DNA of 64,000 nt from a virus: positions 8,489 through 72,488 of the IMG/VR virus record IMGVR_UViG_3300042446_000499; one strand, 5' to 3'. Position numbers and translations under genes: made by a program. The first letter of the stretch is position 1; each line of letters starts with the position of its first letter. Below, one piece after another: positions 12,960-51,871 of this stretch. The notes under the pieces were generated by a model. That model was not told where the DNA came from. It was given only the letters and a program-made list of their open reading frames with translations, and did not search any database.

Positions 12960-13748
12960 ATGTCAAGTACAAATGTTGCTAACTCAGTAATATCTGACCC
13001 CGCTCCAGAAGTTAATGATGCCCCAATTACATCAGTTGATTTACTAAAAGGTCTGTTTAACTATGAAACAGAAGCATGGCAAACAACAGCAGTTGTCCGT
13101 GAATTAACAGGTGAAGATGAAGAGGCTTTGGCTTCCGCATCTGCTAAAAAGGAATTGTCCTACGCCGAATACATGTCAGCCTTGTTATCACGTGCTGTTG
13201 TGTCTATTGGTGATATTAACATTCAGGACAATACATCTTTGGTAGACCAGTTGATGATTGGTGACCGTGACCTTCTATTCTTGGGTGCTATTAAAGCAAC
13301 CTATGGACGGATACGTGAACTAGAAGTTACTTGTGGTAGTTGTGGAGGTACAAACTTTGTTACTTTGCAACTTGATGAAGACTTCAAAATCAACAACCCT
13401 TCTAAGGATTTACACAAGCCAATGGAAGTCACCCTCAAGAATGGTTCAGTTATAAAACTGAATTATCCAACAGGTTCTGACAGCCTTTACGTTGCTAAAA
13501 AAGGTAAAACAACCGCAGAGCAAAACACGATTATGTTGGCCCGTTGTACCGTCTGGGACGGTGCAGATAGGCCACAAGACCTTGAGGTTTGGGCTAAAGC
13601 CCTCAACCTTGGTGATAGAAGCAAGTTGGTAAAGTCGCTAACCACTGACCCTCCAGGTCCAAAGATGGAAGAGGTGAAAACTCAGTGCGGCGTTTGCAAT
13701 GAAGAACTAACTCTTCTAATGGACTGGGTCTCACTTTTATTCGGTTAA
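12960..13748 (+). CDS. Tail/baseplate assembly chaperone (T4 gp26-like) with CxxC pairs
   Basis: VRELTGEDEE and GDRD.L motifs with two CxxC. Lies between tube and tape measure genes. Confidence 0.7.
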   Translation: MSSTNVANSVISDPAPEVNDAPITSVDLLKGLFNYETEAWQTTAVVRELTGEDEEALASASAKKELSYAEYMSALLSRAVVSIGDINIQDNTSLVDQLMIGDRDLLFLGAIKATYGRIRELEVTCGSCGGTNFVTLQLDEDFKINNPSKDLHKPMEVTLKNGSVIKLNYPTGSDSLYVAKKGKTTAEQNTIMLARCTVWDGADRPQDLEVWAKALNLGDRSKLVKSLTTDPPGPKMEEVKTQCGVCNEELTLLMDWVSLLFG

Positions 13749-25321: not shown

Positions 25322-25494
25322 TACTTCTTCTTAGCAGGTGTTTTTTTAGACACAGCCATATTGTCTACTAAGTTTGGGTAAGGTCGTCCTGCTTTTTTAG
25401 CACGAGCCTTTGCTTCAGCCTTTTTTTCAGGCGTCAATTTCTTATCTTTTTTGGATGGGTCTGGTGTATCCCAGACTTCTTTTTTCTTTGTCAT
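25321..25494 (-). CDS. Small Lys-rich protein
   Basis: KLTP..KA.AKARAKKAGRPYPNLVDNM; probable start at ATG 25494. Confidence 0.6.
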   Translation of the reverse strand: MTKKKEVWDTPDPSKKDKKLTPEKKAEAKARAKKAGRPYPNLVDNMAVSKKTPAKKK

Positions 25495-25565
25495 ACTTTT
25501 CAATGATACTAGACATGGAGGTGACTTTTCGGTGTAGGATGCATACCCCAACACAAGGAGTACAA

Positions 25566-26039
25566 ATGGCAGACGGACCTTTTATTCAATTCCCCAAATG
25601 GCTTAGAGAGTATCTAAGGGGGGACGCCACCACCACGGATGTATTGCTGGAATTGCTTGGGTACATGGACGGAAAGACCCAAAAGTTGACGACTTCTTAT
25701 GGGCATATTGCTGAACGCACTGGATATCACCGCACGACAGTCATCAAGTCTGTGAACAAATTGGTGGAACTTGGGGTGCTGGTAAAGCAGAACCGAAGCA
25801 AGAATGGGCGCTCATTGACCAACGAATTTTACGTCAATTTCAATAACCCAAACTACCTCACAGTAGGGGTAGTGTCAGAACTACCCTCCCCATTAGGGGT
25901 AGTCGGGGGACTACTGGGTGGTAGTCCTGGGGCTACCCCCGAGGGTAGTCGGGGCGCTACCCAATTAAGAATAAAGAACAAGAATAAAAAGAACAAGAAG
26001 GAAAATTTGGGAAAGATAGACCCAAGGTTGGTGTCATGA
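25566..26039 (+). CDS. Winged-HTH replication initiator (lambda O/RepA-like N-terminal part)
   Basis: AAGGAG RBS; HTH segment SYGHIAERTGYHRTTVIKSVNKLVELG. Contains the iteron cluster and lies upstream of the loader and helicase genes. Confidence 0.75.
   Translation: MADGPFIQFPKWLREYLRGDATTTDVLLELLGYMDGKTQKLTTSYGHIAERTGYHRTTVIKSVNKLVELGVLVKQNRSKNGRSLTNEFYVNFNNPNYLTVGVVSELPSPLGVVGGLLGGSPGATPEGSRGATQLRIKNKNKKNKKENLGKIDPRLVS
25866..26008. other. Putative replication origin: four palindromic iterons plus an AT-rich tract
   Basis: GGTAG-N8-CTAC(C/T) starting at 25868, 25898, 25920 and 25944, followed by the A-rich repeat AAGAATAAAGAAC/AAGAATAAAAAGAAC, all inside the initiator gene as in lambda O. 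Confidence 0.75.
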
Positions 26040-26455
26040 TGTCACGACAGCAAGATGATTGGGGAATGGCATTTGGTTCCGACAAAGATGTTTACACTCC
26101 CCCAGTAAAAAAGAAACCCAAACGAAAAGATTCCACAGCATCTTTGGTTTACGATTTTCGTGACCAGTTGATGATGGACACCAGTAACCTGATGAACTCC
26201 CAAGTGAATGGTCCAGCCATGATGAAAGCGTTCCGCACCATCTTGGATACTGGACGTTCCTATGATGACATCCGAGCAATGATTAACCAGTTCCACAAAG
26301 ATATTGCTATCAAACCATTGACCGATGGCATACCAGCATGGAAGGCTTTCATTGGTCGCCTTGATTCCTTGGCTAAAAAGGTTGGCACCACCGAAGATGT
26401 ACCGAAATATGACGGACCTAAGATTGACCCACGATTGATGAGTAATGATGACTGA
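26036..26455 (+). CDS. Replication-associated protein
   Basis: ATGA-coupled to the initiator and precedes the DnaC-like ATPase. Confidence 0.5.
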   Translation: MMSRQQDDWGMAFGSDKDVYTPPVKKKPKRKDSTASLVYDFRDQLMMDTSNLMNSQVNGPAMMKAFRTILDTGRSYDDIRAMINQFHKDIAIKPLTDGIPAWKAFIGRLDSLAKKVGTTEDVPKYDGPKIDPRLMSNDD

Positions 26456-27095: not shown

Positions 27096-27510
27096 TGACA
27101 TTGGAAACTTTAACGACATAGGTCAAGGGGTTCTGTTTGAAGGTCTTCTTGCTTCTCCACCTGAGCGCCGCTTCTTTCAAAAAGCAGGTTCCGATTGGGA
27201 TAAGGAATTATCTAAATGGAAATCTAATGAACTTCCTTTAAAAGCACTTGTTGATTATTCTGACCGACTTGGTATTGACACAGAGGTTTATACATTCCTT
27301 GGTCAAGATGCAGTAGACGCCATTGACCGTTGGCTTGGTCGCAAAGGCATTTCTCTTCCTGTGTATTCGTACAACAGTGTTGAAGAACTTTCCTATGACT
27401 TGCGCTTCAAGCGTTCAGTGCGTACTATCTACGTTCCCGAGCAAGAACAAGCCGCCATCATTGGTCTTCGTGCTACGGTAGCAGACTCTAAGAAAGCATG
27501 GTCCATCTAG
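27085..27510 (+). CDS. Hypothetical protein (possibly a degenerate HAD fold)
   Basis: Coupled ORF; VLFEGLL resembles a HAD motif I lacking the Asp residues. Confidence 0.45.
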   Translation: MQSNDIGNFNDIGQGVLFEGLLASPPERRFFQKAGSDWDKELSKWKSNELPLKALVDYSDRLGIDTEVYTFLGQDAVDAIDRWLGRKGISLPVYSYNSVEELSYDLRFKRSVRTIYVPEQEQAAIIGLRATVADSKKAWSI

Positions 27511-28760: not shown

Positions 28761-29649
28761 TATTCAACATGTTCTTGTTGATTTAGGTGTTGAGGTAACT
28801 CGTGCTGGAGAAAGAGAAATCTCTGGTCGTTGCCCCGTACACCTAAGCCGCACAGGGCATGTAGACCATTCACCTTCGTGGTCAATGAATGCTGAGACTG
28901 GTTTATGGATTTGCTATTCGTGTGGTGCTCGTGGAACACTTGTAGGTTTGATTTCTGAATTAACGGGAGACGAGACATCTTTAATTGATGTTCATTCATT
29001 TCTGATTAACTCAAGTCTTGGCAGGATTAATCGTGAAGACATCCCTGAACCTGAACCCGAGATTGATTGGATTTCATACAGTCGTTTTGACGTTGTACCA
29101 ACGTCTTATTTGTACAACAGGAACTTAGATGCATCTGTTGCACGTTCCTATGGTATCCGATGGGATACATCAAACAAAGCATGGGTTATTCCTATTGTGT
29201 CCCCTTTGGGCCAACTTATGGGTTGGCAGTCTAAAAAGCCTGACTGGGTTCGCAACTACCCAATTGGTATCAAGAAGAGCCACACTTTGTTTGGTATTGA
29301 AAAGTTCTTAAACAAACCAGCAGTACTCGTAGAGTCACCTTTAGATGTTATTCGTTTAGCATCTATTACAACAGGGGTACAAGGATTAGCAACTTTTGGT
29401 TCATACGTCAGCACAGAACAACTTAGTTTGCTTAACTCCGTTGCATCTAAAGTAATTGTGGCAATGGATAATGACGAGGCTGGTTTAAAGGCTAGCAAAA
29501 TGCTATTTAAAACAATGCCCCGATTTGATGATGGTGTTTTATGGTTAAACTATAAGAACACAAAAGCAAAAGACATTGGTGACATGACAGACGAAGAAAT
29601 CTATGACGCTCTAAGCACAGCCACTGCAATCCCTGGGTGGGTGCTATGA
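28732..29649 (+). CDS. DNA primase (CHC2 zinc finger plus TOPRIM)
   Basis: CPVH...CYSC; LVES..D; DNDEAG; KDIGD. Confidence 0.9.
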   Translation: MAMKTTGTTDIQHVLVDLGVEVTRAGEREISGRCPVHLSRTGHVDHSPSWSMNAETGLWICYSCGARGTLVGLISELTGDETSLIDVHSFLINSSLGRINREDIPEPEPEIDWISYSRFDVVPTSYLYNRNLDASVARSYGIRWDTSNKAWVIPIVSPLGQLMGWQSKKPDWVRNYPIGIKKSHTLFGIEKFLNKPAVLVESPLDVIRLASITTGVQGLATFGSYVSTEQLSLLNSVASKVIVAMDNDEAGLKASKMLFKTMPRFDDGVLWLNYKNTKAKDIGDMTDEEIYDALSTATAIPGWVL

Positions 29650-32018: not shown

Positions 32019-32669
32019 ATGGGAAAATATGATGAAGAAAACACGGGCTTTGAAACTCGTGAAGAAGCAAGCACAGAGAAGCCACAGGCACGTACGCTAG
32101 TCCGTGGTGGTTGGGGAAGCGTTGACGCAGTCAAGAACGCAGACTCACCATTCGCACAGCGTTTGAAGATTGCGGATGAACCGCAAATTATTAAGTTTCT
32201 TGATGACGAGCCATACGCATCATGGCGTCAGCATTGGATTGAGCGTCAAGGACAAAAGTCTTTTGTTTGCATCGGTGAATTTGATGACAAGGGTTGCCCA
32301 TTGTGTGACTCAGGTGACCGACCTTCAGTTCGTATTGCGTTTAACGTCGCTCTACTCATTGCTGGCGAAGAACCTGTAATCAAGTCCTATGAAGTTGGAC
32401 CACGAGTTATTGACCAGTTGAAGAACTTCCACACGGACCCACGCACAGGACCTTTGTCTAAGCACTACTGGGCAGTCAGCAAGACTGGCAAGGGCGCTAC
32501 TACAGCCACTAGCCACCAGTTGGTTAAAGACCGTGACCTTGAAGAGTGGGGCATTGCAGAAATTGATGACGCAGGTCTCAAGGGACTTATCAGTAGGTCT
32601 TACACTGCCGACATCATTTCAATCCCGTCTCGCAAAGACCTGATTGACATTGCCAACGAACTAGAATAA
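32019..32669 (+). CDS. Single-stranded DNA-binding protein (T4 gp32-like)
   Basis: IIKFL...QHW...C...CPLC zinc motif, located directly before the polymerase. Confidence 0.7.
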   Translation: MGKYDEENTGFETREEASTEKPQARTLVRGGWGSVDAVKNADSPFAQRLKIADEPQIIKFLDDEPYASWRQHWIERQGQKSFVCIGEFDDKGCPLCDSGDRPSVRIAFNVALLIAGEEPVIKSYEVGPRVIDQLKNFHTDPRTGPLSKHYWAVSKTGKGATTATSHQLVKDRDLEEWGIAEIDDAGLKGLISRSYTADIISIPSRKDLIDIANELE

Positions 32670-35461: not shown

Positions 35462-36493
35462 ATGCCATTAGAAACAACACATGAATCATTAAAATCCATT
35501 ATCTCTTCTATTCAGAAGAAGTATGGGGATGACATTATCGTTAGAGGAAGTGACGTTAAAGAAGAGATGACTCGCATCACTTCAGGCGTTCTTGCGTATG
35601 ACCTTATGCTTGGCGGAGGATGGCCCGTCAATCAATGGAGTGAAATCATTGGTGAAGAGTCATCAGGTAAGACGGCTATGGCATACAAGACTATTGCGGC
35701 TAACCAAGCACTTGACCCTGAGTTCACAGCCCTTTGGGTTGCGGCTGAAGAGTATGTACCTGAGTACGCAAAGGCTATTGGTGTAGACCTTGACCGTTTG
35801 TGGGTTGTAGAAACCAACTTGATGGAGCAGGTGTATGACCTTGTACTTCGTGTGATGGATGCTCGTGCAGTAGACATGGTTGTTATTGACTCCCTTCCTG
35901 CCCTGGTGCCAGGAGATGAGGCTGAGAAGACCATGGAAGAGTTCACTATGGGACTTGGTGCTCGCTTGACAGGAAAGTTCTTCCGCAAGGCGTCTAAGGC
36001 TCAAAAGCGTTCAATGATTCACGAAGACCGTGGTTGTACAGGAATCATGATTAACCAGTGGCGTGACAAGATTGGTGTGATGTGGGGTGACCCTCGCACA
36101 ACCCCAGGTGGCAAGGCTAAGAACTTCCACTACTTCTGCCGTGTTGAAGTAAAACGTGATGAATGGCTTAAAGTAAAAGACGAGACAGTTGGTCAATCTA
36201 TTAAGGGACGTACTCTTAAAAACAAAACAAGTGCTCCCAACAAATCAGCGATTGTAGATTTTTACTTTACACACGCTAATGGTTTTGAGTTTGGTGATTT
36301 TGACACTGTTAAAGACATGATTAACATTGCCGCTTCTGTGGACATCATTACTCGTGCAGGTGCTTACTATTCTTATAGTGACCAGCGTTGGCAGGGCAAG
36401 GACGCAATGCTGTTGGCTTTCCGTGAAGACTTAGATATGCAAGCAAAGTTGCGTCTTGAGGTCTTTACACACTTTGAAATCCCAGCACCATGA
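35462..36493 (+). CDS. recA: RecA/UvsX recombinase
   Basis: GEESSGKT, VIDS, INQWR.KIGVMWGDP.TTPGG motifs. Confidence 0.95.
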   Translation: MPLETTHESLKSIISSIQKKYGDDIIVRGSDVKEEMTRITSGVLAYDLMLGGGWPVNQWSEIIGEESSGKTAMAYKTIAANQALDPEFTALWVAAEEYVPEYAKAIGVDLDRLWVVETNLMEQVYDLVLRVMDARAVDMVVIDSLPALVPGDEAEKTMEEFTMGLGARLTGKFFRKASKAQKRSMIHEDRGCTGIMINQWRDKIGVMWGDPRTTPGGKAKNFHYFCRVEVKRDEWLKVKDETVGQSIKGRTLKNKTSAPNKSAIVDFYFTHANGFEFGDFDTVKDMINIAASVDIITRAGAYYSYSDQRWQGKDAMLLAFREDLDMQAKLRLEVFTHFEIPAP

Positions 36494-40502: not shown

Positions 40503-40877
40503 ATGGCTTATAAAGTAAGACGCTCATCACATGGTGGAGACCGCCGACATGGTCGTTCCCTCATTGAGACCCTTAACGATGGTAATGACACCAATGTTGA
40601 TGCATCTGATGCTGAAACCTATGACGAAACCGTAGGACCTCGTGACATGGTTCGCCGTCCAAACACTGAAGAGTGGGGAGAACGTGCTGAGGGTTACCGT
40701 GTTTTTTCGGGTGATAGCGATGACGCAGAACAAGTGCGAATGGTATTTGCCGCAAACGAAGGTCGTTCAACTGGCGGAAGAGGAAAAGTTAGATTTACTA
40801 ACTGGGAAGAGCCTGAAGAAGTAGACGAAAAGTTAGAACGTAAAAAGTGGGAAAAAGAAACGGGTATGAGTTACTAA
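40503..40877 (+). CDS. Hypothetical protein with a basic N-terminus and acidic body
   Basis: ORF track; part of the coupled operon. Confidence 0.55.
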   Translation: MAYKVRRSSHGGDRRHGRSLIETLNDGNDTNVDASDAETYDETVGPRDMVRRPNTEEWGERAEGYRVFSGDSDDAEQVRMVFAANEGRSTGGRGKVRFTNWEEPEEVDEKLERKKWEKETGMSY

Positions 40878-41092
40878 TGGGTGGGCACAGAGACGATGGA
40901 ACGTTCGCAGAGGACAAATCCAAAGGACGTAGTTTAGATAAAACTACTTATTTTTCTCAATTTAACGATGATGCACCAGCAAGTGGTATGCCTCGTCCAG
41001 ACCTAGACGAAGTGCTAGACCCTTGGGACCCCGAGGACATTGAGGAAGAACAAACACTTAAAGAAGAGCGTCTGAAGAAAGGACACTACTAA
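40877..41092 (+). CDS. Small protein, MGGxRDDG family
   Basis: TAATG start at 40877; N-terminus paralogous to 41523. Confidence 0.55.
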   Translation: MGGHRDDGTFAEDKSKGRSLDKTTYFSQFNDDAPASGMPRPDLDEVLDPWDPEDIEEEQTLKEERLKKGHY

Positions 41093-41523
41093 TGACTACT
41101 GACCACAGAGGTCGCCCTGTTGGGGGCAACCACCGCTCAACACCACGTGTACAGCAAGCAATTGCTAAACAAATTCAACGTGATACTAACATTAGCCTTT
41201 ATGAATCAGCAGGGCTTGCATCTAATGTAATTAGAGCACATCGCCAAGGTTCCCCCCTTAGTGGACGTGGTCCAATTGAAACAGGTCCAGTACAAACAGG
41301 TCTTCGTCCATACGTTGGTGACAAAGAATACAATGAGGTTATGGACCGTGTGGGACCAGGTGCATATGACCACGGGCGAGATGATGCATGGAGCGATACA
41401 GCCGCCAGCATTAATTACCCACATGAAGTTAACCGTGCAGTTCGTACTGAAGGTGGAACGGGTAGTTACATTGGTAAAGCCGTAAAGAACCGCCAAGGTT
41501 ACGCCGAGGATGATTCATTCTAA
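41092..41523 (+). CDS. Hypothetical protein, paralog of 43887
   Basis: Shared N-terminus TDHxGRxxGxNHxxTPR. Confidence 0.6.
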   Translation: MTTDHRGRPVGGNHRSTPRVQQAIAKQIQRDTNISLYESAGLASNVIRAHRQGSPLSGRGPIETGPVQTGLRPYVGDKEYNEVMDRVGPGAYDHGRDDAWSDTAASINYPHEVNRAVRTEGGTGSYIGKAVKNRQGYAEDDSF

Positions 41524-41738
41524 TGGGTGGACCACGTGACGACGGTGCATCCGCCGAAGACAAAGCGCACCATGAAGGTCGCAAAGTTTCACGTGCTCAC
41601 ATTGCACGTAGATTTAGTCCAGGTAAGGGTCCAGGGTCCTCCTATGGTACTTGCGTAGGTTGTAATACAGAACAACCTGTTGGTATGTCAGGTCGTTGCC
41701 ATGACTGTGGTACAGAAGACTCAGGAACCGATAAGTAA
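41523..41738 (+). CDS. Small zinc-ribbon protein, MGGxRDDG family
   Basis: CVGC...CHDC; N-terminus paralogous to 40877. Confidence 0.55.
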   Translation: MGGPRDDGASAEDKAHHEGRKVSRAHIARRFSPGKGPGSSYGTCVGCNTEQPVGMSGRCHDCGTEDSGTDK

Positions 41739-42046
41739 TGCCCCAAGTCCCCTATAAGCCTTGGCAATCCCGACAGGAAATGCTCATAGATATGTCGTTG
41801 CAAAGCGCCATTTCTGACCCTGAGACCATCAGAGCAATTCGTCCTATCGTGCCACAGCAACTCATGCCTGAAAGATTAGGTTTTTCTAAGCAAGAGATGG
41901 GAATTATGGACGTTCTAAACACCGATAGGTTTGCGCCGACTTATCGTTCTTGGGTCTCAGGCGCACCAGTAATGTTCCGTAACGGCTTTATCGCAGATGA
42001 CTTCACAGGTTCTAGCCGCTATTCAATGCAAGGATTATCAACATAA
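41738..42046 (+). CDS. Hypothetical protein
   Basis: TAATG-coupled ORF. Confidence 0.55.
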   Translation: MPQVPYKPWQSRQEMLIDMSLQSAISDPETIRAIRPIVPQQLMPERLGFSKQEMGIMDVLNTDRFAPTYRSWVSGAPVMFRNGFIADDFTGSSRYSMQGLST

Positions 42047-43539
42047 TGCCAGTAAATGATTACCGCCAAGACCAAGCACAACAAACGTTTGATGCTCAAC
42101 AACAACAAGGTGCTCGTCAACGTACGTTTGGCTTCCAAACAGGATTAGGAACACAAGCACCAACAGGTGCCGCACCTACTGCTGGACCAGTTGGCTCTAT
42201 GGGACCACGCCAAGGACCAAACACAGGTGCAACACCAAACTACGGTATCCCTGCACAGACAAATTATGGTGCAGGCAATAGTTCAGGTCGTTCAGGCACC
42301 ATGCCTACAGGTGGAAGCACCAGTTCTATGTCTCAAGCATGGGGTGGTTCTGGTGGAAACGCACAGCAATCCATTACACAGCCAGCAGGCAGTCGTGCAC
42401 TTCGCCGTGGTTCTACCGTTCAACAACAAAATGTTGGAAATACTTACCGTTCCTACAGCATGGGTAACGATGATTTTAGTAACAATAACTTTGGCGATGT
42501 GCTTGGTGCAGGTGCTCAACAAGACAAGCGTGTCCAATCAAGTGTTATCCAAACTGGTGGAAACTCTGTTACCCAAGACGCCAGTGGTGGCGCTGGTGGT
42601 CGTACAGGAAACGGTGGAGCCGCTCCTGGTGGTGCAGGTGGAGCAGGAGGTGGAGCAGCCGCTCCAGCCGCTCCAAAACGTGCTCGTACAGGTGGGCGTG
42701 TTGCTGGTCAAGTATCTGACACCCCAGGCGCTCAAGCCGCACGTACTCGCCGTGCAAACAGCAAAGCCGCTGGTGGCGCTGGTGGCGCTGGTGGCGCTGG
42801 TGGCAAAGGTGGAAACAGTGGAGCAGCACCAGGTGGCGCAGGTGGGCAGAACACCGCCACAGTAGGTGACCAAATCAGCGTTGATTTTGGAGCACCTTCA
42901 TTTGCTACAAAAAACCCGAAAGCACCAGCACCAACTGGAGACGTAAGTGTTAATTCTGGTAATAGAACAATTTCTCAAAAAGGTAAAGACCTTTCTGCGT
43001 CCCAGTCGGATGATAGTAGTACAAAAACCACAACTACAAATACGACTAATCCTCCTCCAGCGCCCCCTGCCGCACCTCCAGCAGGTGGTGCCACACCAAC
43101 TACTCCTCCACCTCCAGCAGGTGGCGGTACGCCAGCACCAGCAACTCCTAAAAAGAGTGGAGCACCTGCTACGCCAGCCGCTCCAGCGCCTGCGCCACGT
43201 ACACAGGCACCTTCACCTAGACCAACTGCTGCTCCTGGACCAACTCCAGCAGGTCCTCAAGCACAAGTAACAGGACCTGCTACAGCAGGACCACCACAAG
43301 TTCAACCAGCCGCTCCAGCACCTGCACCTGCTAAAGCAACTCCTGCACCAGCGGCGGCTCCAGCCGCAAAGACAGCACCAGCCGCAAAGCCTGTTGCTAA
43401 AAAAGAAGCAGTTAAAAAAGCAGCCACTAAAAAAGTAGATGCTGCTGTTAAAGAAACACCAGCACCTGCTAAAGAAACTCCTGCAAAGAAGGAACCTGCA
43501 AAGAAAGCGGCGGCTCCTAAGAAAGACCCAAAAGCGTAG
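42046..43539 (+). CDS. Long low-complexity (G/A/P/Q/K) disordered protein with a histone H1-like PAKK tail; possible 540-aa -1 frameshift isoform ending at 43667
   Basis: Composition of the 497-aa ORF; slippery CCCAAAA plus hairpin at the stop. Confidence 0.7.
   Translation: MPVNDYRQDQAQQTFDAQQQQGARQRTFGFQTGLGTQAPTGAAPTAGPVGSMGPRQGPNTGATPNYGIPAQTNYGAGNSSGRSGTMPTGGSTSSMSQAWGGSGGNAQQSITQPAGSRALRRGSTVQQQNVGNTYRSYSMGNDDFSNNNFGDVLGAGAQQDKRVQSSVIQTGGNSVTQDASGGAGGRTGNGGAAPGGAGGAGGGAAAPAAPKRARTGGRVAGQVSDTPGAQAARTRRANSKAAGGAGGAGGAGGKGGNSGAAPGGAGGQNTATVGDQISVDFGAPSFATKNPKAPAPTGDVSVNSGNRTISQKGKDLSASQSDDSSTKTTTTNTTNPPPAPPAAPPAGGATPTTPPPPAGGGTPAPATPKKSGAPATPAAPAPAPRTQAPSPRPTAAPGPTPAGPQAQVTGPATAGPPQVQPAAPAPAPAKATPAPAAAPAAKTAPAAKPVAKKEAVKKAATKKVDAAVKETPAPAKETPAKKEPAKKAAAPKKDPKA
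42769..42804 (+). repeat. Coding tandem repeat (GCTGGTGGC)x4 = AGG x4
   Basis: Read directly from the sequence. Confidence 0.85.
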
Positions 43540-43561
43540 AGGAGTCTCCTAAAGAGGCTCC
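43527..43561 (+). other. -1 programmed ribosomal frameshift signal
   Basis: C CCA AAA heptamer in frame, 7-nt spacer, GGAGTCTC-ctaaa-GAGGCTCC hairpin, 44 open codons in the -1 frame. Confidence 0.65.
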
Positions 43562-43664
43562 AAAAGCACCCATGGAGATGGACGTAAGACCAAATCCACA
43601 AGGCGTCAATGAACGCCACGTAAAAGTCGGAGACCAATGGGTCCCATTATCAAAGTATAATAAA

Positions 43665-43682
43665 TGATAGGATTATAGTATG
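43665..43682 (+). promoter_or_regulatory. Extended -10 promoter for a leaderless mRNA
   Basis: TGa-TAGGAT, then 6 nt, then ATG 43680. Confidence 0.5.
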
Positions 43683-43877
43683 GCAGTTAATGATTCCCGT
43701 TCCATGAATATGGACCTCATCCGTGGCGCAGGCGACGGAAAATTCAAATCTCTCACCCCAAGTCGTGGTGGAGAAGTTGACCCAACCTCAGCAACAATTC
43801 GTAAGGAACAGTTGCAAATTCAATATAATGTTCAGACGTCACCAGACTTTCCGAACTATGAAACACACTTGCGATAG
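43680..43877 (+). CDS. Hypothetical protein
   Basis: 65-aa ORF with a leaderless-type start. Confidence 0.55.
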   Translation: MAVNDSRSMNMDLIRGAGDGKFKSLTPSRGGEVDPTSATIRKEQLQIQYNVQTSPDFPNYETHLR

Positions 43878-43886
43878 GAGCAACTG

Positions 43887-44264
43887 ATGGGAACAGACCA
43901 CAAAGGACGCCGTATCGGTGACAACCATAAAGCAACGCCACGCATTTCTCAAATGCTTGCGTACAAAATGGGTTATGACCCTAAATTTTTAGGTGGCGCT
44001 ATTCCAGAAGAATACCGTGAAGAAACTGCTCAAAATTTGATTGATTCACACCGTGCTGGTGTGGGAAGAGGTCGTGGTGGTTCTAACGCAACACCATTGA
44101 TTTCAGATGTTGTTAAAAATCGTCACGGTATTGTAGATGGTATTGCTGAAGAAAGGTACCAACGTGCCTGGAATGTGACAAGCCCACGAGAAGAATGGGG
44201 CAATGATGATGGCAGGAATTCTTATTTGTTTGACCACCCTGATGACCCACCACGAGGGTACTAG
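43887..44264 (+). CDS. Hypothetical protein, paralog of 41092
   Basis: AGGAG RBS; shared N-terminus. Confidence 0.6.
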   Translation: MGTDHKGRRIGDNHKATPRISQMLAYKMGYDPKFLGGAIPEEYREETAQNLIDSHRAGVGRGRGGSNATPLISDVVKNRHGIVDGIAEERYQRAWNVTSPREEWGNDDGRNSYLFDHPDDPPRGY

Positions 44265-44314
44265 ACAACCTACTTAATTGTCCTGTAGGCTGAGAGCCTA
44301 CCAAGGAGTATAAA

Positions 44315-44782
44315 ATGGCTGAAACAGGTTTTGACCGTATCCTCGTTTGCAAACATCATGGTGTTATGTACAAGATGCGTCCTTATGATGGACCACCTGA
44401 GTATGACCAAGAACTTATTGAGTTGTGCAATCGTCACAATGCTCAGTTCCCTGACTCAGATAAATGTCGTGCAACCATCTACCGAACAGACCCAGAGACG
44501 GCTAGTAAATTGGATATGGAGTCAGCACTTACAAAAGAGTTGTCTGACCATGACGTGTACATCAAAGATTACCGTGATGACTTAAAGGTTGAAGCCCTGA
44601 AATGTTTTAACCAGCACAATCGCCCTAGTGATGGTTGCCCTGATTGGTGCATTGAGGCTAAAACTATTGGTCGCAAGATTGGTGTTCCGCCAGAGAAGCG
44701 CCAGTATCTCTGCATGTATTGCCCTGCTGGTGCACACGTTGCACACATTGAACGTAAGGCTATGGGGCTTTACGACCAATGA
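44315..44782 (+). CDS. Cys/His-rich hypothetical protein
   Basis: AAGGAG RBS; C..H.RP...C...C..C pattern. Confidence 0.6.
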   Translation: MAETGFDRILVCKHHGVMYKMRPYDGPPEYDQELIELCNRHNAQFPDSDKCRATIYRTDPETASKLDMESALTKELSDHDVYIKDYRDDLKVEALKCFNQHNRPSDGCPDWCIEAKTIGRKIGVPPEKRQYLCMYCPAGAHVAHIERKAMGLYDQ

Positions 44783-45270
44783 TTTTTATTACCTTTGATA
44801 CTCTTGCTAGCCCAGCAGAGTCATTGGGCGCAAGACAACCCCGTCCTGAAACACGTCGTTTGTGGAGTGCTTTATTTCCTCATTACCATGGGCGCATTGT
44901 GGTTATTGCAGATGGCATCCCTCGGGATGGTATTAACGGTGAAGAAATTCTTAAAGAATGGTTAAAGCGTGAAGGGTTTAAAGCAACTTCTGTAGATATT
45001 TCTAGCGAGAAGAGTTCTGAAGTTGTGTATGACCGAGTCATGGCTCTTGCGTCAGTATTTGGAAAACCTCATTGGTTCATTGACACCAACCCTGAATCTA
45101 TTGCTAAAGTGGCTCGCTACGGCATACCTACACTTTTAATGACCATTCCACATACCATTCGTCCTGAATGGGATAAAGGTCGGGAAATCAAAGGTTGGGA
45201 TACGCTTGTAGAAGAAATCAATAAGCAAGAAATGGCTAAAAAAGAAAGAAGTTGGGGCGACATTGAGTGA
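44779..45270 (+). CDS. Hypothetical protein (degenerate HAD-like fold)
   Basis: IFITFD.L N-terminus, WL...G and FIDTNP......G.P.L HAD-like elements. Confidence 0.45.
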   Translation: MIFITFDTLASPAESLGARQPRPETRRLWSALFPHYHGRIVVIADGIPRDGINGEEILKEWLKREGFKATSVDISSEKSSEVVYDRVMALASVFGKPHWFIDTNPESIAKVARYGIPTLLMTIPHTIRPEWDKGREIKGWDTLVEEINKQEMAKKERSWGDIE

Positions 45271-45502
45271 CATGACGTTTGAAGAATGGTATCAAATTGG
45301 GATGGATAAGAGTTTCTGTGGTCCACCTATATGTGTAGAACACGATGGATACCCAAGCACAGAAGATGAAGACGCATGGTGCGAAGAGAATGGTGAGATG
45401 CCTTGTTTCTCCATGGTTCGCCTATACGCCGATGACCTTGAACGCCTACTTGTAGAGCAGAACCACTCCCCTTCGGTGTGGCGCAGAGTTGGCTGGGAAT
45501 GA
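45263..45502 (+). CDS. Small acidic hypothetical protein
   Basis: ORF track; C..HDG.P motif. Confidence 0.5.
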   Translation: MSDMTFEEWYQIGMDKSFCGPPICVEHDGYPSTEDEDAWCEENGEMPCFSMVRLYADDLERLLVEQNHSPSVWRRVGWE

Positions 45503-46935
45503 AAATATACTTTGGTGGTGCTGAGAAAGGCTCTTACCGAAACATGCTGTTATCCGCAGGGGTAACTCGTTTTGGTATCAATCTGACTCATCTCCCTGTC
45601 CCAAAGAAAAAAGAACAAGACCTTGGCACCATGTTCAATGGTGGAGAGGTTCTTCTTTATGTTTCTGAGACAGACGAAGACATCGCTAAGTACGATACTT
45701 TTATTCGTCAGCATGCTGACAACCTCAGTATTGTCATTGGACAGCCCCAGTACGATGGTGCATGGCTTGGAGAAAAGTACGTTCCTATCTGGAATGACCC
45801 CGAAGACCTTGAGAGGTTGGCATGGTTGTGCCAGCGACATGGCAAGGTTGCTATCTCTGACAAGGCTATTAACGGTAAGAACCTAAACCGAATCAAGCAG
45901 TTGTCAACCCGATGGGGCACCCACCTCATTGGTCTCACATCTAAGCCTGACTTGATTGAAAGCATTGCTTGGGACTCCGTTGTGGTGGTCTCATGGACGT
46001 CTGTCATCCGCTATGGCGAGACACAGGTGTGGGATGGGCATGGGCTACGCAGGTACCCAGCACAACAAAAAGACTCTGCTCGTAAGAAACATCGTGCCGA
46101 TATTATTCGCCTTGGTATTGACATTGACGCAGTCATGGAAGACGAAGTGTCTGCCGTTGGTTCGCTTGCTATTGAGTCTTGGAAGCAATGGGAAACTAAA
46201 ACATTTGGGGGCTATGACCACATGCAAGACGATGATGAGCAAGAATTTGGTACCCCTAAAAACGGGGACATAATTGCTACCAACCCTAATACCCCTGATG
46301 CAGGAAACGTGGTTCCTAGGGGTACAAGTATTGCTACCAACGTGCCTGAGAAGCGGCACGAGGGTAACCGTGTATTGCTACCAGTAATGGGTGTAGAGAA
46401 CATTACCTCTATGGGGTCGCAAAGCCTTGATAGAGAAGGGGAATCTATTGAAATTGCCCCTGAAATAACCCCCCTGCTTAGGTACAATGCGAACCCTTTA
46501 CGACAGTGTAATAATTGCTACTTATCCTCACGTTGTCCCTCATTTCAAGAAAATACTGAGTGTGCGTTTTCTTTGCCGATTGAGATTCGGACTAAAGACC
46601 AACTTAGTGCCGCAATGAGGGCGCTTGTAGAGATGCAAGTGGGTCGTGTGATGTTCGCTAGGTTTGCTGAAGAGATGGAAGGGCAAGGTCTTGACCCGTC
46701 TCTGTCGGCTGAAATGGACAGAGTGTTTGCCCTTGTAGAGAAGATGCGAAACATCTCAGACAACCGAGAGATGGTCAGTCTCAAGGTAGAAGCAAGTGGC
46801 TCCAGTGGCGTACTGTCCCGACTGTTTGGACAAAAGGCTGGGGAGCATGCTCGCCAACTCCCCAACGGTGGATTTGACAGTGGACAAACCGACGCCCTTT
46901 ACGCAGACATAATTGATTTATCTGAAGAGAGTTGA
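45499..46935 (+). CDS. Two-domain protein: TGT/DpdA-like barrel (degenerate) plus a Cys4/helical C-terminal domain
   Basis: H.IG....WDSV...SW.S..RYG resembles the TGT-like DS.D..SW segment; C..C....C.......C near the C-terminus. Confidence 0.4.
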   Translation: MKIYFGGAEKGSYRNMLLSAGVTRFGINLTHLPVPKKKEQDLGTMFNGGEVLLYVSETDEDIAKYDTFIRQHADNLSIVIGQPQYDGAWLGEKYVPIWNDPEDLERLAWLCQRHGKVAISDKAINGKNLNRIKQLSTRWGTHLIGLTSKPDLIESIAWDSVVVVSWTSVIRYGETQVWDGHGLRRYPAQQKDSARKKHRADIIRLGIDIDAVMEDEVSAVGSLAIESWKQWETKTFGGYDHMQDDDEQEFGTPKNGDIIATNPNTPDAGNVVPRGTSIATNVPEKRHEGNRVLLPVMGVENITSMGSQSLDREGESIEIAPEITPLLRYNANPLRQCNNCYLSSRCPSFQENTECAFSLPIEIRTKDQLSAAMRALVEMQVGRVMFARFAEEMEGQGLDPSLSAEMDRVFALVEKMRNISDNREMVSLKVEASGSSGVLSRLFGQKAGEHARQLPNGGFDSGQTDALYADIIDLSEES

Positions 46936-49038: not shown

Positions 49039-49213
49039 AGAAACAAAACAAGCCTACGCACGTGCGATGGGCTACACAACAAATGAAGATTACGCACAAC
49101 TCAAAGCAGACTATGAAGCACTCAAGAAACGTTATGAACAAATACTGGTTGCTGTTGAAGACAGCACTGAAGCGGTTCTTAGAATTGCTAGAGAAGGCAA
49201 AATGGATTTGTAA
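49028..49213 (+). CDS. Small coiled-coil protein
   Basis: GTG start; TAATG-coupled to whiB. Confidence 0.45.
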   Translation: MDTEETKQAYARAMGYTTNEDYAQLKADYEALKKRYEQILVAVEDSTEAVLRIAREGKMDL

Positions 49214-49623
49214 TGCAATTACACCTGTGGATGGAAGAGGCATCTTGCCGCAAACGTAGAAACGACTTCTGGTATCCACCATTAGATACTGACGTTCCCG
49301 ATAACTATTACGCTATTGGACGTGAGGTGTGCCATCGTTGCCCTGTATGGGATAAGTGCTTAGACGCAGGCATTGACGAGAAATGGGGCATGTGGGGTGG
49401 TCTCACTCCACAAGAGCGAACAGTTATTGTTACTACTAATCCAAAGCCATCAGCAATAAAACAGCATGGTTCATGGATTAGATACCGACAAGGGTGTCGC
49501 TGTTCTGATTGTATTGACGGGCATAATCAACCCACAAATAAAATCAACATAAACGTCATTCCAAAGCATGGTGAACCTGTTCAAGATTTAGAAATGTTGC
49601 GTTTCAACTTGCTTTCAACCTGA
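49213..49623 (+). CDS. whiB: WhiB-family transcription factor with an extra C-terminal HG...Y..GCRC..C module
   Basis: W...A.C...C..CPV...C....GMWGG....R Fe-S signature. Confidence 0.9.
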   Translation: MQLHLWMEEASCRKRRNDFWYPPLDTDVPDNYYAIGREVCHRCPVWDKCLDAGIDEKWGMWGGLTPQERTVIVTTNPKPSAIKQHGSWIRYRQGCRCSDCIDGHNQPTNKININVIPKHGEPVQDLEMLRFNLLST

Positions 49624-49729
49624 TTGCGTGTAAAATGTAACTAGAGACCCATACCAAGGCTTTACCCCCGAGCACCTAGTGCTCTCTTGGTATGGGTTCT
49701 TTGCATTATTGGACAAACATTGGAGACAG

Positions 49730-50323
49730 ATGATTTATCGCCTCATTACAGCAATTACCCTTTCCGCTACCACCTTCTTTGGTGCCATAACGACAGGAGG
49801 TGATGAGCCAGAGGCGAGTACAACGACAGTTGTAATCACAGTTCCTAAAGTGCACAGTATGTCAACCAACATGATGCACCCCGAACTAAGAGCACAGTTC
49901 AAAACAGGAAAGGCTGGCTCCATTAAGTTTTGGGAAGCAGTGTCTTGGTGTGAGACTAACCACAACTGGAAAGATGGTGGTTACTATGCAGGTGGACTTG
50001 GTATGGCGCAATCAGCGTGGCAAGGCTTTGGAGGTAGAGAGTTCTCACACTCCCCTAAGAATGCAACCAAAGAAGAACAAATTATTGTTGCTAATCGTTT
50101 GGCATTCTTTGGATACCAAACCAAGAATGTATTCAAGACACTTGATGACAAGTTGAACAACAGACCATTCTTTCGCCCTGCTATTGGATGGCGTGACTCC
50201 AGTAACTGGGGCAGGGACTGTGTGAACTGGAAGACACGTAAACCATTACGTATTGAATACACCCAACAAACTGTGCATGCAACAGACATGCTGGACAAGT
50301 ACCTGAAAATGCCACTACAATGA
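49730..50323 (+). CDS. Secreted Rpf-like lytic transglycosylase
   Basis: Signal peptide plus WEAV..CE...NW....Y.GGL......W...GG.......AT..EQI.VA (Rpf domain). Confidence 0.8.
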   Translation: MIYRLITAITLSATTFFGAITTGGDEPEASTTTVVITVPKVHSMSTNMMHPELRAQFKTGKAGSIKFWEAVSWCETNHNWKDGGYYAGGLGMAQSAWQGFGGREFSHSPKNATKEEQIIVANRLAFFGYQTKNVFKTLDDKLNNRPFFRPAIGWRDSSNWGRDCVNWKTRKPLRIEYTQQTVHATDMLDKYLKMPLQ

Positions 50324-50501: not shown

Positions 50502-51546
50502 GTCACAAGATGGCGTTACCCATTGGGGTGGCGCTGGTTGGGTTCGCCTTGGTCAATACATGGACAAGATTGCCAATGAAGGCATTGAAGTTTGTATGGG
50601 CACATTGGTATGGAACCGTACACACTTTTCCATTGACACTAGTGATGGTATTGGTGAACACAACTATCAAGACGTAGACATTATTTACATGCAACGACTT
50701 ATGCATGCTACTTTGGCTACACACATAAAAGAGGCTCAGGCGTACGGACAGGTCATTATCAACGACCTTGACGACTGGTACTGGGGGTTGCACCCTAGCA
50801 ATGGCGCTTATGCATCCTCACACCCAAAGACTAACCCTAATGAGAACATCAACCACTACAAAGGCGTTCTTAGTGCCAGCAACCTTGTAACTGTGTCTAC
50901 CAACTATTTGGCTGAACGCATCTCTGCCTTTGTACGTTGTCCTATTTTGGTTATTGAAAACACCGTGGACGTGGCACGATTTACACCCGTTCAACATAGC
51001 GACACCACGCTTCCAGTGGTTGGTTGGGTAGGTTCAACAAATCACCGAAGTAACGACCTTGAGATACTTTCTGGCATTATGAAACCACTGTATGACAACA
51101 ATGAGATACTTTTGATGCATGCTGGATATCACATAGGAGCACCATCAGTAGCAAGCAAGTGGGGCGTTCTTGAAGAGTCTGTAGAACGTTACCCAGCGCT
51201 TGACCCAGAGCGTTACCCAGAGTTACTAAGAATGGAAGTGGGTGTGGCTCCACTTAGCGACATGCCATTCAACCACGCTAAGTCTGACATCAAACTTCTT
51301 GAATACTCTGCCTCTGGTATCCCTTGGGTCGGTTCTGACCTTCCTGCGTATCACAAACTTTGTGAGGAGTGGGGCATTGGTCGTACCGCAAAGAAACCGA
51401 AGCAATGGTTGTCTCATTTACGGGCACTAAAAAACCCCGACATCCGTTCCTCCGAAGGCTCCGCATTGCGTGAAGCCTCATGGAAGAGGGACATCGGGGT
51501 TGGTACTAAACAACTGTTAGAAGTTCTAAACTCCCTGTCTTCTTGA
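50458..51546 (+). CDS. GT-B glycosyltransferase
   Basis: DLDD, VTVST, VGWVGS..H..DL and APL....FN.AKS.IK.LEY...G.P motifs. Confidence 0.85.
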   Translation: MKLGIASGDRVPASRSQDGVTHWGGAGWVRLGQYMDKIANEGIEVCMGTLVWNRTHFSIDTSDGIGEHNYQDVDIIYMQRLMHATLATHIKEAQAYGQVIINDLDDWYWGLHPSNGAYASSHPKTNPNENINHYKGVLSASNLVTVSTNYLAERISAFVRCPILVIENTVDVARFTPVQHSDTTLPVVGWVGSTNHRSNDLEILSGIMKPLYDNNEILLMHAGYHIGAPSVASKWGVLEESVERYPALDPERYPELLRMEVGVAPLSDMPFNHAKSDIKLLEYSASGIPWVGSDLPAYHKLCEEWGIGRTAKKPKQWLSHLRALKNPDIRSSEGSALREASWKRDIGVGTKQLLEVLNSLSS

Positions 51547-51871
51547 ACTCTGCAAAGAGTTTGCGTCTATCGGAGGGAAAGGTTCCTGCCCAAATACCAT
51601 GCGGTTCATTGTTGAGAACAGCAAACTCATAGCATTGCTTACTAACAGTACAATTCTTACAGGCATTCATTGCTGTACTAATACGTTCTTTCTTCTCTCC
51701 CTTTTTGAGTCCTACTGAGTTGTAATCAAAAAAGACGTTCTTGGGTAGTTTCCCGCAGTTGGCGTACTCCCTCCACCCTGTACTCATGACATGCCGAAGG
51801 TTAGGGAAAGAGACGGCGGTTTCCGCCTCCCCTTCCCCTACCGCTATGGTCACACCCTTGCTAAGGGTCAC
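51506..51871 (-). CDS. whiB: Second WhiB-family transcription factor
   Basis: W...A.C....FF...C..C.V...C...A......GIWAG....R. Confidence 0.85.
   Translation of the reverse strand: MTLSKGVTIAVGEGEAETAVSFPNLRHVMSTGWREYANCGKLPKNVFFDYNSVGLKKGEKKERISTAMNACKNCTVSKQCYEFAVLNNEPHGIWAGTFPSDRRKLFAEFKKTGSLELLTVV

What the first reader, a model, noticed from the sequence alone, without database searches (positions are those of the whole stretch)
43527..43667. Textbook -1 frameshift extends a 497-aa disordered histone-like protein
Seen: the ORF ends GAC CCA AAA GCG TAG. The X XXY YYZ heptamer CCCAAAA (43527-33) is in the correct phase, followed by a 7-nt spacer and an 8-bp hairpin GGAGTCTC/GAGGCTCC (43541-61). 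The -1 frame stays open for 44 codons (SVEESPKEAPKAPMEMDVRPNPQGVNERHVKVGDQWVPLSKYNK, TGA 43665). It continues the same P/K/E composition and then adds a small folded-looking tip, exactly filling an otherwise empty gap. Known: phage frameshifts are mostly described in tail chaperone and capsid/tail genes. Inference: two isoforms (497 and about 540 aa) of a non-canonical, possibly packaged or DNA-condensing protein.
Basis: partly seen in the sequence, partly recalled or inferred. Interest (0 to 1): 0.7.

Follow-up and report, generated by a model that had tools for sequence, protein, structure and literature searches.

The report
Conserved -1 frameshift in lake phage
A floppy, lysine-rich protein of an uncultured lake phage very probably comes in two sizes, because some ribosomes slip back one base at a conserved signal and add a small folded tip; this is a known trick in a gene family where it had not been reported.

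Summary
ORF 42046..43539 (497 aa) ends GAC CCA AAA GCG TAG. It carries an in-phase C CCA AAA heptamer (43527-33), a 7-nt spacer and an 8-bp hairpin (43541-61). The -1 frame is open only from 43521 to TGA 43665-67.

In one sequence this is not beyond chance. Relatives decide it. All 7 related uncultured-phage loci whose 0-frame stops here keep the heptamer in phase. The codon supplying its first C varies (GAC/GCC/TCC). They keep a 6-7 nt spacer and a hairpin with three fully compensated pairs and no broken pair. They keep an open -1 frame ending in RHVKVGDQWVP / HGEVDGKWVP, with changes concentrated at third codon positions.

These loci have a 131-152 nt "gap" before the next gene; 36 relatives without the signal have at most 48 nt. 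Contigs of three lake DNA runs match without an indel, so an assembly error is excluded.

Sister phages (L013 type, 7 proteins) end in frame with a conserved ...VK[IM]VDGVPTFVPDK at the same junction. This is suggestive only, because hhalign gave no support.

Best reading: a genuine -1 programmed frameshift giving 497- and 540-aa isoforms (confidence about 0.8). The function of the protein and of the tip is unknown. The scan has found similar frameshifts in other phage gene families on other DNA, but not in this one.

The parts
42046..43539 (+). Main ORF, 0 frame, 497 aa. Conserved N-terminal part, then G/A-, P/T- and K/A/P-rich low-complexity blocks. Ends ...KKDPKA TAG.
   Evidence: No Pfam or PHROG family. 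The ESM Atlas model has mean pLDDT 0.29. Orthologues of 198-634 aa lie after the same 102-aa gene in 59 distinct loci.
43518..43520 (+). TAA in the -1 frame. It limits the region where a shift can enter the extension to 43521-43536.
   Evidence: The same -1-frame stop lies 16 nt before the 0-frame stop in window (L001), L003, L004 and L005; L009 and L010 differ (13 and 52 nt).
43527..43533 (+). Slippery heptamer C CCA AAA, in X XXY YYZ phase.
   Evidence: It is identical and in phase in 7 of 7 loci, while the codon giving the first C is GAC, GCC or TCC.
43534..43540 (+). Spacer GCGTAGA (7 nt). It holds the last 0-frame codon GCG and the stop TAG (43537-39).
   Evidence: The spacer is 7 nt in 5 loci and 6 nt in L004/L005.
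43541..43561 (+). Stimulatory hairpin: 8-bp stem GGAGUCUC/GAGGCUCC, loop CUAAA.
   Evidence: MFE -14.5, z -3.0. One search shows 4 stem versions with 3 doubly compensated pairs and none broken; 50 orthologues without the signal fold no better than -10.4 (median -3.4).
43533..43664 (+). The 44 codons of the -1 frame read after the slip (SVEESPKEAPKAP linker, then MEMDVRPNPQGVNERHVKVGDQWVPLSKYNK).
   Evidence: Changes by codon position 1/2/3 are 19/10/30 in the 4 close relatives and 7/2/17 in the core.
43578..43658 (+). Predicted folded tip: three beta strands and a short helix (residues 18-44 of the 46-aa translation from 43527).
   Evidence: AlphaFold2 on 6 sequences, mean pLDDT 76, about 90 for residues 21-40. 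No significant fold match in the PDB.
43665..43667 (+). TGA stop of the -1 frame, 12 nt before the next gene.
   Evidence: The junction AATGATAGGATTATA is shared with L013, where the main ORF itself stops there.
41738..42046 (+). Upstream 102-aa gene, TAATG-coupled to the main ORF. Used as the anchor to find relatives.
43680..43877 (+). Downstream 65-aa gene (MAVNDSRSMN...), conserved next gene.

Best explanation
This is a genuine -1 programmed ribosomal frameshift site.

Mechanism (inferred). Most ribosomes read ...GAC CCA AAA GCG and stop at TAG, giving the 497-aa disordered, K/A/P-tailed protein. When CCA is in the P site and AAA in the A site, the hairpin 7 nt downstream resists unwinding. 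In a fraction of ribosomes both tRNAs slip back one base (CCA to CCC, AAA to AAA). Reading goes on with AGC GTA GAG... and adds 44 residues, a 13-residue P/K/E linker and a roughly 30-residue three-stranded beta tip, to give a 540-aa form.

Shown: the signal, its conservation and the coding nature of the tip.

Inferred: that the slip occurs, and its rate.

Guess: the short form is a free, probably nucleic-acid-associated polymer, and the tip is a docking module that ties a set fraction of it to a partner.
For: 1. In-phase C CCA AAA lies 3 nt before the stop, together with a -1 ORF of 42-49 codons. This holds in 6 of 59 distinct orthologous loci and in a 7th locus, L100. These 7 span a clade in which the main proteins are only 37% identical.
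2. AAAGACCCAAAAGCGTA is invariant in the 5 loci of alignment A2. In L009, L010 and L100 the preceding codon changes to GCC or TCC but keeps the C.
3. Window and L003 are identical over 43501-43571 (71 nt), while both flanks differ.
4. The hairpin sits at 6-7 nt in all 7 loci, in four stem versions: three pairs changed on both sides, two changed through wobble, none broken. Fold z-scores are -2.6 to -3.2. Among 50 orthologues without the heptamer, 0 fold at -14 or better.
5. The tip behaves as coding sequence: third-position excess, in-frame length differences, and invariant N, G, H, V, W, V, P.
6. The distance from the 0-frame stop to the next gene is 131-152 nt in the 6 signal-bearing loci, against a median of 18 and a maximum of 48 in 36 others. 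After the -1 stop the distance is 12-18 nt.
7. No start codon is conserved in position: codon 16, 18, 21 or 26/27. Three of 6 loci have no SD-like core.
8. Contigs of 3 DNA runs from 3 studies cover 43200-44000 with 0 differences and 0 gaps.
9. C_CC.A_AA.A falls in the V_VV.A_AA.R class that Sharma et al. 2014 call most efficient in E. coli (PMC4066793, passages read).
10. L013 and 6 more proteins end in frame with a conserved VK[IM]VDGVPTFVPDK at the same TGATAGGATTATA junction.
Against: - No protein or ribosome-profiling data exist, and the efficiency in the unknown host has not been measured.
- Every locus has at least one ATG inside the extension, and only 35 of 68 genes of this phage have an SD core. 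A separately started mini-protein therefore cannot be excluded.
- The similarity of the tip to the in-frame end of L013 is not statistically supported (hhalign E 0.19, matching only PKEKPK).
- The linker between heptamer and tip shows no clear codon-position bias (4/1/4).
- The tip found no relative among 1.84 billion representative proteins.
- The 7 loci represent about 4 sequence-distinct lineages, not 7 independent ones.
- P0001, a close relative of L004, ends differently (...DAANPPKP), and its DNA could not be fetched.
Confidence: 0.8

Rival explanations
1. The tip is a separate mini-gene (23-31 aa). It is started at an internal ATG/GTG of the -1 frame, by an ordinary start or by re-initiation after the TAG. 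The hairpin is a regulatory or stabilising element of that mini-gene.
For: Each of the 6 loci examined has an ATG in the extension. The predicted fold starts close to that Met. Window and L003 have GAGG 14 nt upstream, and L010 has GAGG 8 nt upstream. About half of this phage's genes lack an SD anyway.
Against: The start position is not conserved: codon 16 is ATG, GTG or CTT, and other loci use codon 18, 21 or 26/27. L009, L004 and L005 have no SD core. This model does not explain the in-phase heptamer kept through changes of the preceding codon. It does not explain the -1 frame staying open and in register from the heptamer in all loci despite 18 nt of length difference. It does not explain the P/K/A-rich linker that continues the composition of the main protein.
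Confidence: 0.12
2. Assembly or sequencing error: one A is missing from the run, and the true gene is one continuous 540-aa ORF.
For: Adding one A to AAAA would join the frames (reading).
Against: Seven loci from separate IMG/VR and metagenome contigs show the same frame break. Contigs of 3 DNA runs from 3 studies (2020, 2023, 2024) match the stretch with 0 gaps, although they may include the source sample. A 151-nt contig from an RNA library also spans 43480-43611 without a gap.
Confidence: 0.02
3. Decaying remnant: an old frameshift mutation cut off a once in-frame C-terminus (as in L013), and the tip is no longer made.
For: Sister phages have an in-frame C-terminal motif at the same junction. 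More distant relatives have no tip at all.
Against: The tip remains open, in register and under purifying selection across lineages whose main proteins share only 37% identity. The heptamer and a covarying hairpin would not be kept in a remnant.
Confidence: 0.04

Closest known systems
Phage T7 gene 10A/10B -1 frameshift (recalled from memory, not checked in a paper here)
   Same: A -1 slip close to the end of an ORF gives a minority of molecules a short C-terminal extension. One gene therefore makes a short major form and a longer minor form.
   Different: T7 gene 10 is the major capsid protein. Here the gene is a disordered protein of no known family lying after the replication module. The heptamer differs.
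E. coli dnaX tau/gamma -1 frameshift (A_AAA_AAG plus 3' stem-loop; review PMC5009743, one passage read)
   Same: A heptamer with a Lys codon in the A site, and a simple stem-loop about 6-7 nt downstream as stimulator.
   Different: dnaX also has an upstream SD-like enhancer; none is seen within 20 nt upstream here (reading). In dnaX the shifted product is the shorter one, whereas here the shift lengthens the protein.
Tail assembly chaperone G/GT-type frameshift of long-tailed phages (PRFect paper PMC10885494, passages read)
   Same: A conserved -1 frameshift in a phage. It produces a fixed ratio of a short protein and the same protein carrying an extra C-terminal module that could dock to a partner.
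   Different: The position differs: this gene is not between the tail tube and tape measure genes. Sheath, tube and tape measure lie at 10.8-16.4 kb. There is no sequence relation. In the PRFect passages, 2397 of 2476 joined genes in SEA-PHAGES genomes are tail chaperones and 79 are hypothetical.
IS3/IS911 orfAB -1 frameshift (Sharma et al. 2014, PMC4066793, passages read)
   Same: X_XX.A_AA.R heptamer with a downstream structure. C_CC.A_AA.A is listed among motifs with more than 0.1% shifting without a stimulator, and it is under-represented in E. coli genes.
   Different: IS elements fuse two long ORFs (transposase). Here the -1 ORF is only 44 codons, and the overlap window is 6 codons.

Membership tests
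-1 programmed ribosomal frameshift site (X XXY YYZ with a 3' stimulator) | In-phase slippery heptamer that lets both tRNAs re-pair in the -1 frame | tested here: met
   C CCA AAA at 43527-33 in phase. It is identical in 7 of 7 loci.
-1 programmed ribosomal frameshift site (X XXY YYZ with a 3' stimulator) | Stable RNA structure starting about 5-9 nt after the heptamer | tested here: met
   7-9 bp stems at 6-7 nt, -12.6 to -16.3 kcal/mol. z-scores are -2.6 to -3.2. Controls: 0 of 50 at -14 or better.
-1 programmed ribosomal frameshift site (X XXY YYZ with a 3' stimulator) | Structure supported by covariation | tested here: met
   3 pairs changed on both sides, 2 through wobble, none broken across 4 stem versions. 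This comes from a hand-registered table. RNAalifold on the MAFFT alignment misplaced the loop gap and counted broken pairs.
-1 programmed ribosomal frameshift site (X XXY YYZ with a 3' stimulator) | The -1 ORF is coding and kept in register with the slip site in diverged relatives | tested here: met
   open in all loci, length differences are multiples of 3, and changes show a third-position excess.
-1 programmed ribosomal frameshift site (X XXY YYZ with a 3' stimulator) | The trans-frame protein is actually made | not testable with these tools
   No proteomic or ribosome-profiling data. The RNA-library contigs show only presence of the sequence.
dnaX-type site | SD-like enhancer about 10-14 nt upstream of the heptamer | tested here: not met
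   The upstream 20 nt (GCGGCGGCTCCTAAGAAAGA in the window; GCACCTAAAAAAGA in L004) hold no GGAG, GAGG or AGGA (reading).
Tail assembly chaperone frameshift (G/GT type) | Gene pair lies between the tail tube and tape measure genes | tested here: not met
   Sheath is at 10793, the putative tape measure at 13893 and the baseplate at 20084. This gene lies at 42 kb, after DnaB, DNA polymerase and UvsX-like genes.
Histone H1 / HU-type nucleoid proteins | Recognisable globular DNA-binding domain (Pfam linker histone or Bac_DNA_binding) | tested here: not met
   0 Pfam and 0 PHROG families. Only the K/A/P-rich composition of the tail resembles them.

The most novel reading that the evidence does not exclude
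The frameshift is a stoichiometry device for a phage-made polymer. The 497-aa form would be a free, DNA-coating or condensate-forming disordered protein of an actinobacterial phage. The 540-aa form would carry a unique beta tip that anchors a fixed fraction of the polymer to a partner such as the replisome, the DNA-modification (DpdA) machinery or the prohead. Sister phages that fuse the C-terminal motif in frame, and distant ones that lack it, would then mark three evolutionary settings of the same switch.
Probability: 0.12. Interest if true: 0.7.

Novelty: new member of a known kind. Interest (0 to 1): 0.45.

Why it matters
Annotated phage frameshifts are overwhelmingly in tail chaperone genes: 2397 of 2476 joined genes in SEA-PHAGES genomes (PRFect paper, passages read). 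This is a well-supported case in a non-structural, disordered protein of uncultured lake phages that probably infect Actinobacteria; the window holds two WhiB genes and an Rpf-like gene.

The finding corrects the annotation. The 140-nt "gap" is coding, and the gene has two products. It also provides a compact natural cassette (heptamer, 7-nt spacer, 8-bp stem) with natural stem variants, which could be used to study frameshifting in low-GC Actinobacteria. Finally, it singles out a 30-residue tip as the functionally interesting part of an otherwise featureless protein.

The mechanism itself is textbook, so the interest is moderate.

Tried and rejected
**Database and similarity searches that gave nothing**
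- Megablast of 41500-45500 against cultured phages found no match.
- tblastn of the 102-aa neighbour against cultured phages found no match.
- Pfam and PHROGs found no family for the main protein, the tip ORF or six neighbours.
- The tip (46 aa) found 0 hits among 1.84 billion representative proteins. The query is short, so this is weak.
- The tip has no second copy in the phage record.
- Rfam gave only two sub-threshold chance matches, away from the site.
- Foldseek of the tip model against the PDB gave a best E of 1.3. Weak chromodomain-like rows are not significant.
- The ESM Atlas gave no feature hit, and structure rows had TM of at most 0.26.

**Analyses that did not help**
- RNAalifold on a MAFFT alignment put the loop gap of L004/L005 in the wrong place and reported broken pairs. 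I replaced it with a per-sequence fold table.
- hhalign of the tip profile against the L013 C-terminus gave no support (E 0.19), so the in-frame-fusion argument is kept as suggestive only.

**Alternatives considered and rejected**
- Transcriptional slippage: the A run is only 4 long (recalled rule that runs of about 7 or more are needed).
- Stop-codon readthrough: the conserved tip is in the -1 frame, and the 0 frame hits TAA 15 codons on (reading).
- Another genetic code: the 0-frame stop is TAG in some loci and TAA in others.

**Other heptamers flagged by the script**
- T TTA AAA at 18178 is only followed by a normal TAATG-coupled gene.
- G GGA AAG at 26009 was not followed up.
- Other in-phase heptamers in orthologues (L025, L029, L042, L046, L053, L057, L096) have no conserved extension.

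**Literature**
- Searches found no paper on this gene family or site. In one search none of the 8 listed papers (of 9 that matched) holds the frameshift term. In one search, 0 papers matched.
- Supplements were not opened. Supplementary tables of PMC4066793 may give the measured efficiency of C_CC.A_AA.A.
Full report
**What is in the window**

The window is part of a 72.5-kb IMG/VR virus record, estimated 77% complete. PHROG matches show a myovirus:
- virion genes: portal at 1642, tail sheath at 10793, baseplate wedge at 20084;
- a replication module: DnaB-like helicase at 27498, helicase at 29637, DNA polymerase at 32669, UvsX-like recombinase at 35462.

The finding lies after that module, in a row of small TAATG-coupled genes. 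It is upstream of a DpdA-like gene at 45478 (phrog_887; 28% identity to Streptomyces phage proteins). Two WhiB genes and an Rpf-like transglycosylase point to an actinobacterial host. Twenty-two lake or freshwater DNA runs hold all sampled words of the stretch.

**The observation**

- ORF 42046..43539 (497 aa) ends GAC CCA AAA GCG TAG.
- CCCAAAA (43527-33) is in X XXY YYZ phase.
- The spacer is 7 nt (GCGTAGA).
- The stem GGAGTCTC/GAGGCTCC (43541-61) has 8 pairs, one of them U-G.
- The -1 frame is closed by TAA at 43518-20 and open from 43521 to TGA 43665-67. A shift can therefore enter only within a 6-codon overlap, and the heptamer sits inside it.
- The shifted product would be 496 + 44 = 540 aa.
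- The extension ends 12 nt before the next gene (ATG 43680).
- The segment folds at -14.5 kcal/mol, z = -3.0.

In a single sequence this is not beyond chance. The heptamer is not enriched in the window: 8 found, 14 expected. An open -1 frame past a stop is also common in this compact genome: 37 of 108 ORFs.

**Relatives**

- The main protein has no Pfam or PHROG family, and its Atlas model is disordered (pLDDT 0.29).
- A protein search gave only two relatives at 37% identity. One of them again ends KKDPKA.
- Scans of IMG/VR with the protein and with these relatives gave L003-L006.
- The strongly conserved upstream 102-aa gene served as an anchor. It gave 9 viral loci and 121 metagenome loci, of which 80 were kept.
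- A script then located the ORF after the anchor in each locus.
- I dropped ORFs that run off a contig, ORFs under 150 aa, and loci with an identical 3' context. That left 59 distinct orthologues of 198-634 aa.

**Conservation of the signal**

- Six of the 59 orthologues have an in-phase CCCAAAA 3 nt before the stop and a -1 ORF of 42-49 codons: the window, L003, L009, L010, L004 and L005.
- A scan with the tip alignment added a seventh locus, L100.
- AAAGACCCAAAAGCGTA is invariant in the five loci of alignment A2.
- In L009, L010 and L100 the preceding codon encodes Ala or Ser instead of Asp, but it still ends in C (GCC, TCC). Selection therefore acts on the heptamer, not on the amino acid.
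- Window and L003 differ at many sites on both sides but are identical over 43501-43571 (71 nt).
- All seven loci have a stem 6-7 nt after the heptamer, in four versions:

| Loci | 5' arm | 3' arm | Loop |
|---|---|---|---|
| window, L003, L010 | GGAGUCUC | GAGGCUCC | CUAAA |
| L100 | GGGGUCUC | GAGGCUCC | CAAAA |
| L009 | GGAGCCU | AGGCUCC | 7 nt |
| L004, L005 | CGGGGCAGG | CCUGCUCCG | 11 nt |

- Counted from the base of the stem, three pairs change on both sides, two change through wobble, and none is broken.
- The equivalent 48 nt of 50 orthologues without the heptamer fold at a median of -3.4 and at best -10.4 kcal/mol. The seven loci fold at -12.6 to -17.7.
- RNAalifold on the MAFFT alignment mis-registered the long loop of L004/L005. 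The pair table is therefore my own registration of per-sequence folds.

**The tip is coding**

- Translated in the -1 frame, the extensions align as PKSV, a P/K/E/A-rich linker, and then a conserved core: RHVKVGDQWVP in the window group and LHGEVDGKWVP in L004/L005. N, G, H, V, W, V and P are invariant.
- Among the four close relatives, changes fall 19/10/30 on codon positions 1/2/3. In the core they fall 7/2/17.
- Length differences are 9 nt, 18 nt, and a compensated pair in L009. All keep the frame in register with the heptamer.
- AlphaFold2 on the six sequences gives three strands and a short helix, with pLDDT about 90 for residues 21-40.
- The model has no significant PDB match.

**The gap**

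In the six signal-bearing loci the 0-frame stop lies 131-152 nt before the next gene. In 36 other relatives the distance has a median of 18 and a maximum of 48 nt. After the -1 stop the distance is the usual 12-18 nt.

**Sister phages**

- On a tree of the two flanking small proteins (22 loci that I chose), the six signal-bearing loci cluster with L012 and L013. Support is 92/86, and the inner order is unresolved.
- L013 (634 aa) has no heptamer. It ends in frame with ...KPKGSVKIVDGVPTFVPDK, and its TGA is part of the same TGATAGGATTATA junction that follows the window's -1 stop.
- Six further proteins of this type, 56-88% identical in the last 162 residues, all end VK[IM]VDGVPTFVPDK.
- The resemblance to VKVGDQWVP is short, and hhalign does not support it (E 0.19).
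- I therefore count this as suggestive positional evidence that the tip frame is the natural continuation of the protein.
- More distant relatives end in KKEEEE-like tails, with the next gene directly after and no tip.

**Artefact and other rivals**

- *Missing A.* Seven separate contigs exclude it. So do contigs from three lake DNA runs of three studies, which match 43200-44000 with no difference and no gap, although some may be the source sample. A 151-nt contig from an RNA library, from a slightly different strain, also spans 43480-43611 without a gap. DNA carry-over in that library cannot be excluded, so it is not proof of transcription.
- *Separate mini-gene.* This remains possible. Every locus has an ATG in the extension. 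However, its position moves (codon 16, 18, 21 or 26/27), and codon 16 is ATG, GTG or CTT. Three of six loci lack any SD core, although only 35 of 68 genes of this phage have one. This model also leaves the heptamer, the register and the covarying stem unexplained.
- *Decaying remnant.* Purifying selection on the tip contradicts it.
- *Readthrough, another genetic code, transcriptional slippage.* These do not fit the frame, the two different stop codons, or the 4-base A run.

**Comparison with known systems**

- The site meets the sequence-level criteria of a canonical -1 frameshift site: heptamer, spacing, covarying stem and a conserved coding -1 ORF.
- C_CC.A_AA.A belongs to the V_VV.A_AA.R class that Sharma et al. 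2014 rank as most efficient in E. coli. They also list it among motifs with more than 0.1% shifting without a stimulator (PMC4066793, passages).
- The Atkins review notes that C_CCA_AAG is highly shift-prone (PMC5009743, one passage).
- The site lacks the upstream SD-like enhancer of dnaX (reading).
- It is not the tail-chaperone frameshift, because of its position.
- In outcome it is most like T7 gene 10A/10B (recalled).
- Five literature searches found no description of this gene family or site.
- This scan has reported similar conserved frameshifts in other phage gene families on other genomes, but none in this family.

**Verdict**

I put the probability that this is a used -1 programmed frameshift, giving 497- and 540-aa forms, at about 0.8. 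What the protein and its tip do is unknown. My working guess, a tethering module on a fraction of a nucleic-acid-associated disordered polymer, is inference only. The site is a new member of a known kind and of moderate interest.

Noticed in passing
window 40847-41092, 41523-41738; 41092-41523, 43887-44264: Small neighbouring proteins share N-terminal leaders but have different bodies: MGGHRDDGTFAEDK / MGGPRDDGASAEDK and MTTDHRGRPVGGNHRSTPR / MGTDHKGRRIGDNHKATPR. The main protein (MPVNDYRQ) and the next gene (MAVNDSRSMN) also start alike. Earlier notes of the scan describe such tags.
   Followed up: no
window 41738-42046: The 102-aa protein has no Pfam or PHROG family but is 65-97% identical in 121 metagenome contigs, lake and marine, always just upstream of a disordered protein of very variable length. 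No cultured phage in the collection has it.
   Followed up: partly
window 45478-46935: DpdA-like (queuine tRNA-ribosyltransferase family) gene. It suggests 7-deazaguanine DNA modification. The nearest cultured relatives are Streptomyces phages at 28% identity.
   Followed up: partly
window 49213-49623, 51506-51871 (-), 49679-50323: Two WhiB genes and an Rpf-like transglycosylase domain protein (Pfam). This supports an actinobacterial host.
   Followed up: partly
window 26003-26039: In-phase A AAT TTG and G GGA AAG heptamers lie in the last codons of ORF 25410..26039, whose -1 frame is the next gene 26036..26455. The next gene has its own ATG in an ATGA overlap, so this is probably coincidence.
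   Followed up: no
P0001 (protein): A close relative of the L004 protein ends ...KKKDAANPPKP instead of ...KKDPKA.
   Followed up: no
window 12960-13748: The 262-aa ORF between the tube-like gene and the putative tape measure matches Pfam T4_baseplate (PF12322). A 145-nt stretch without a listed + strand ORF follows before 13893.
   Followed up: no
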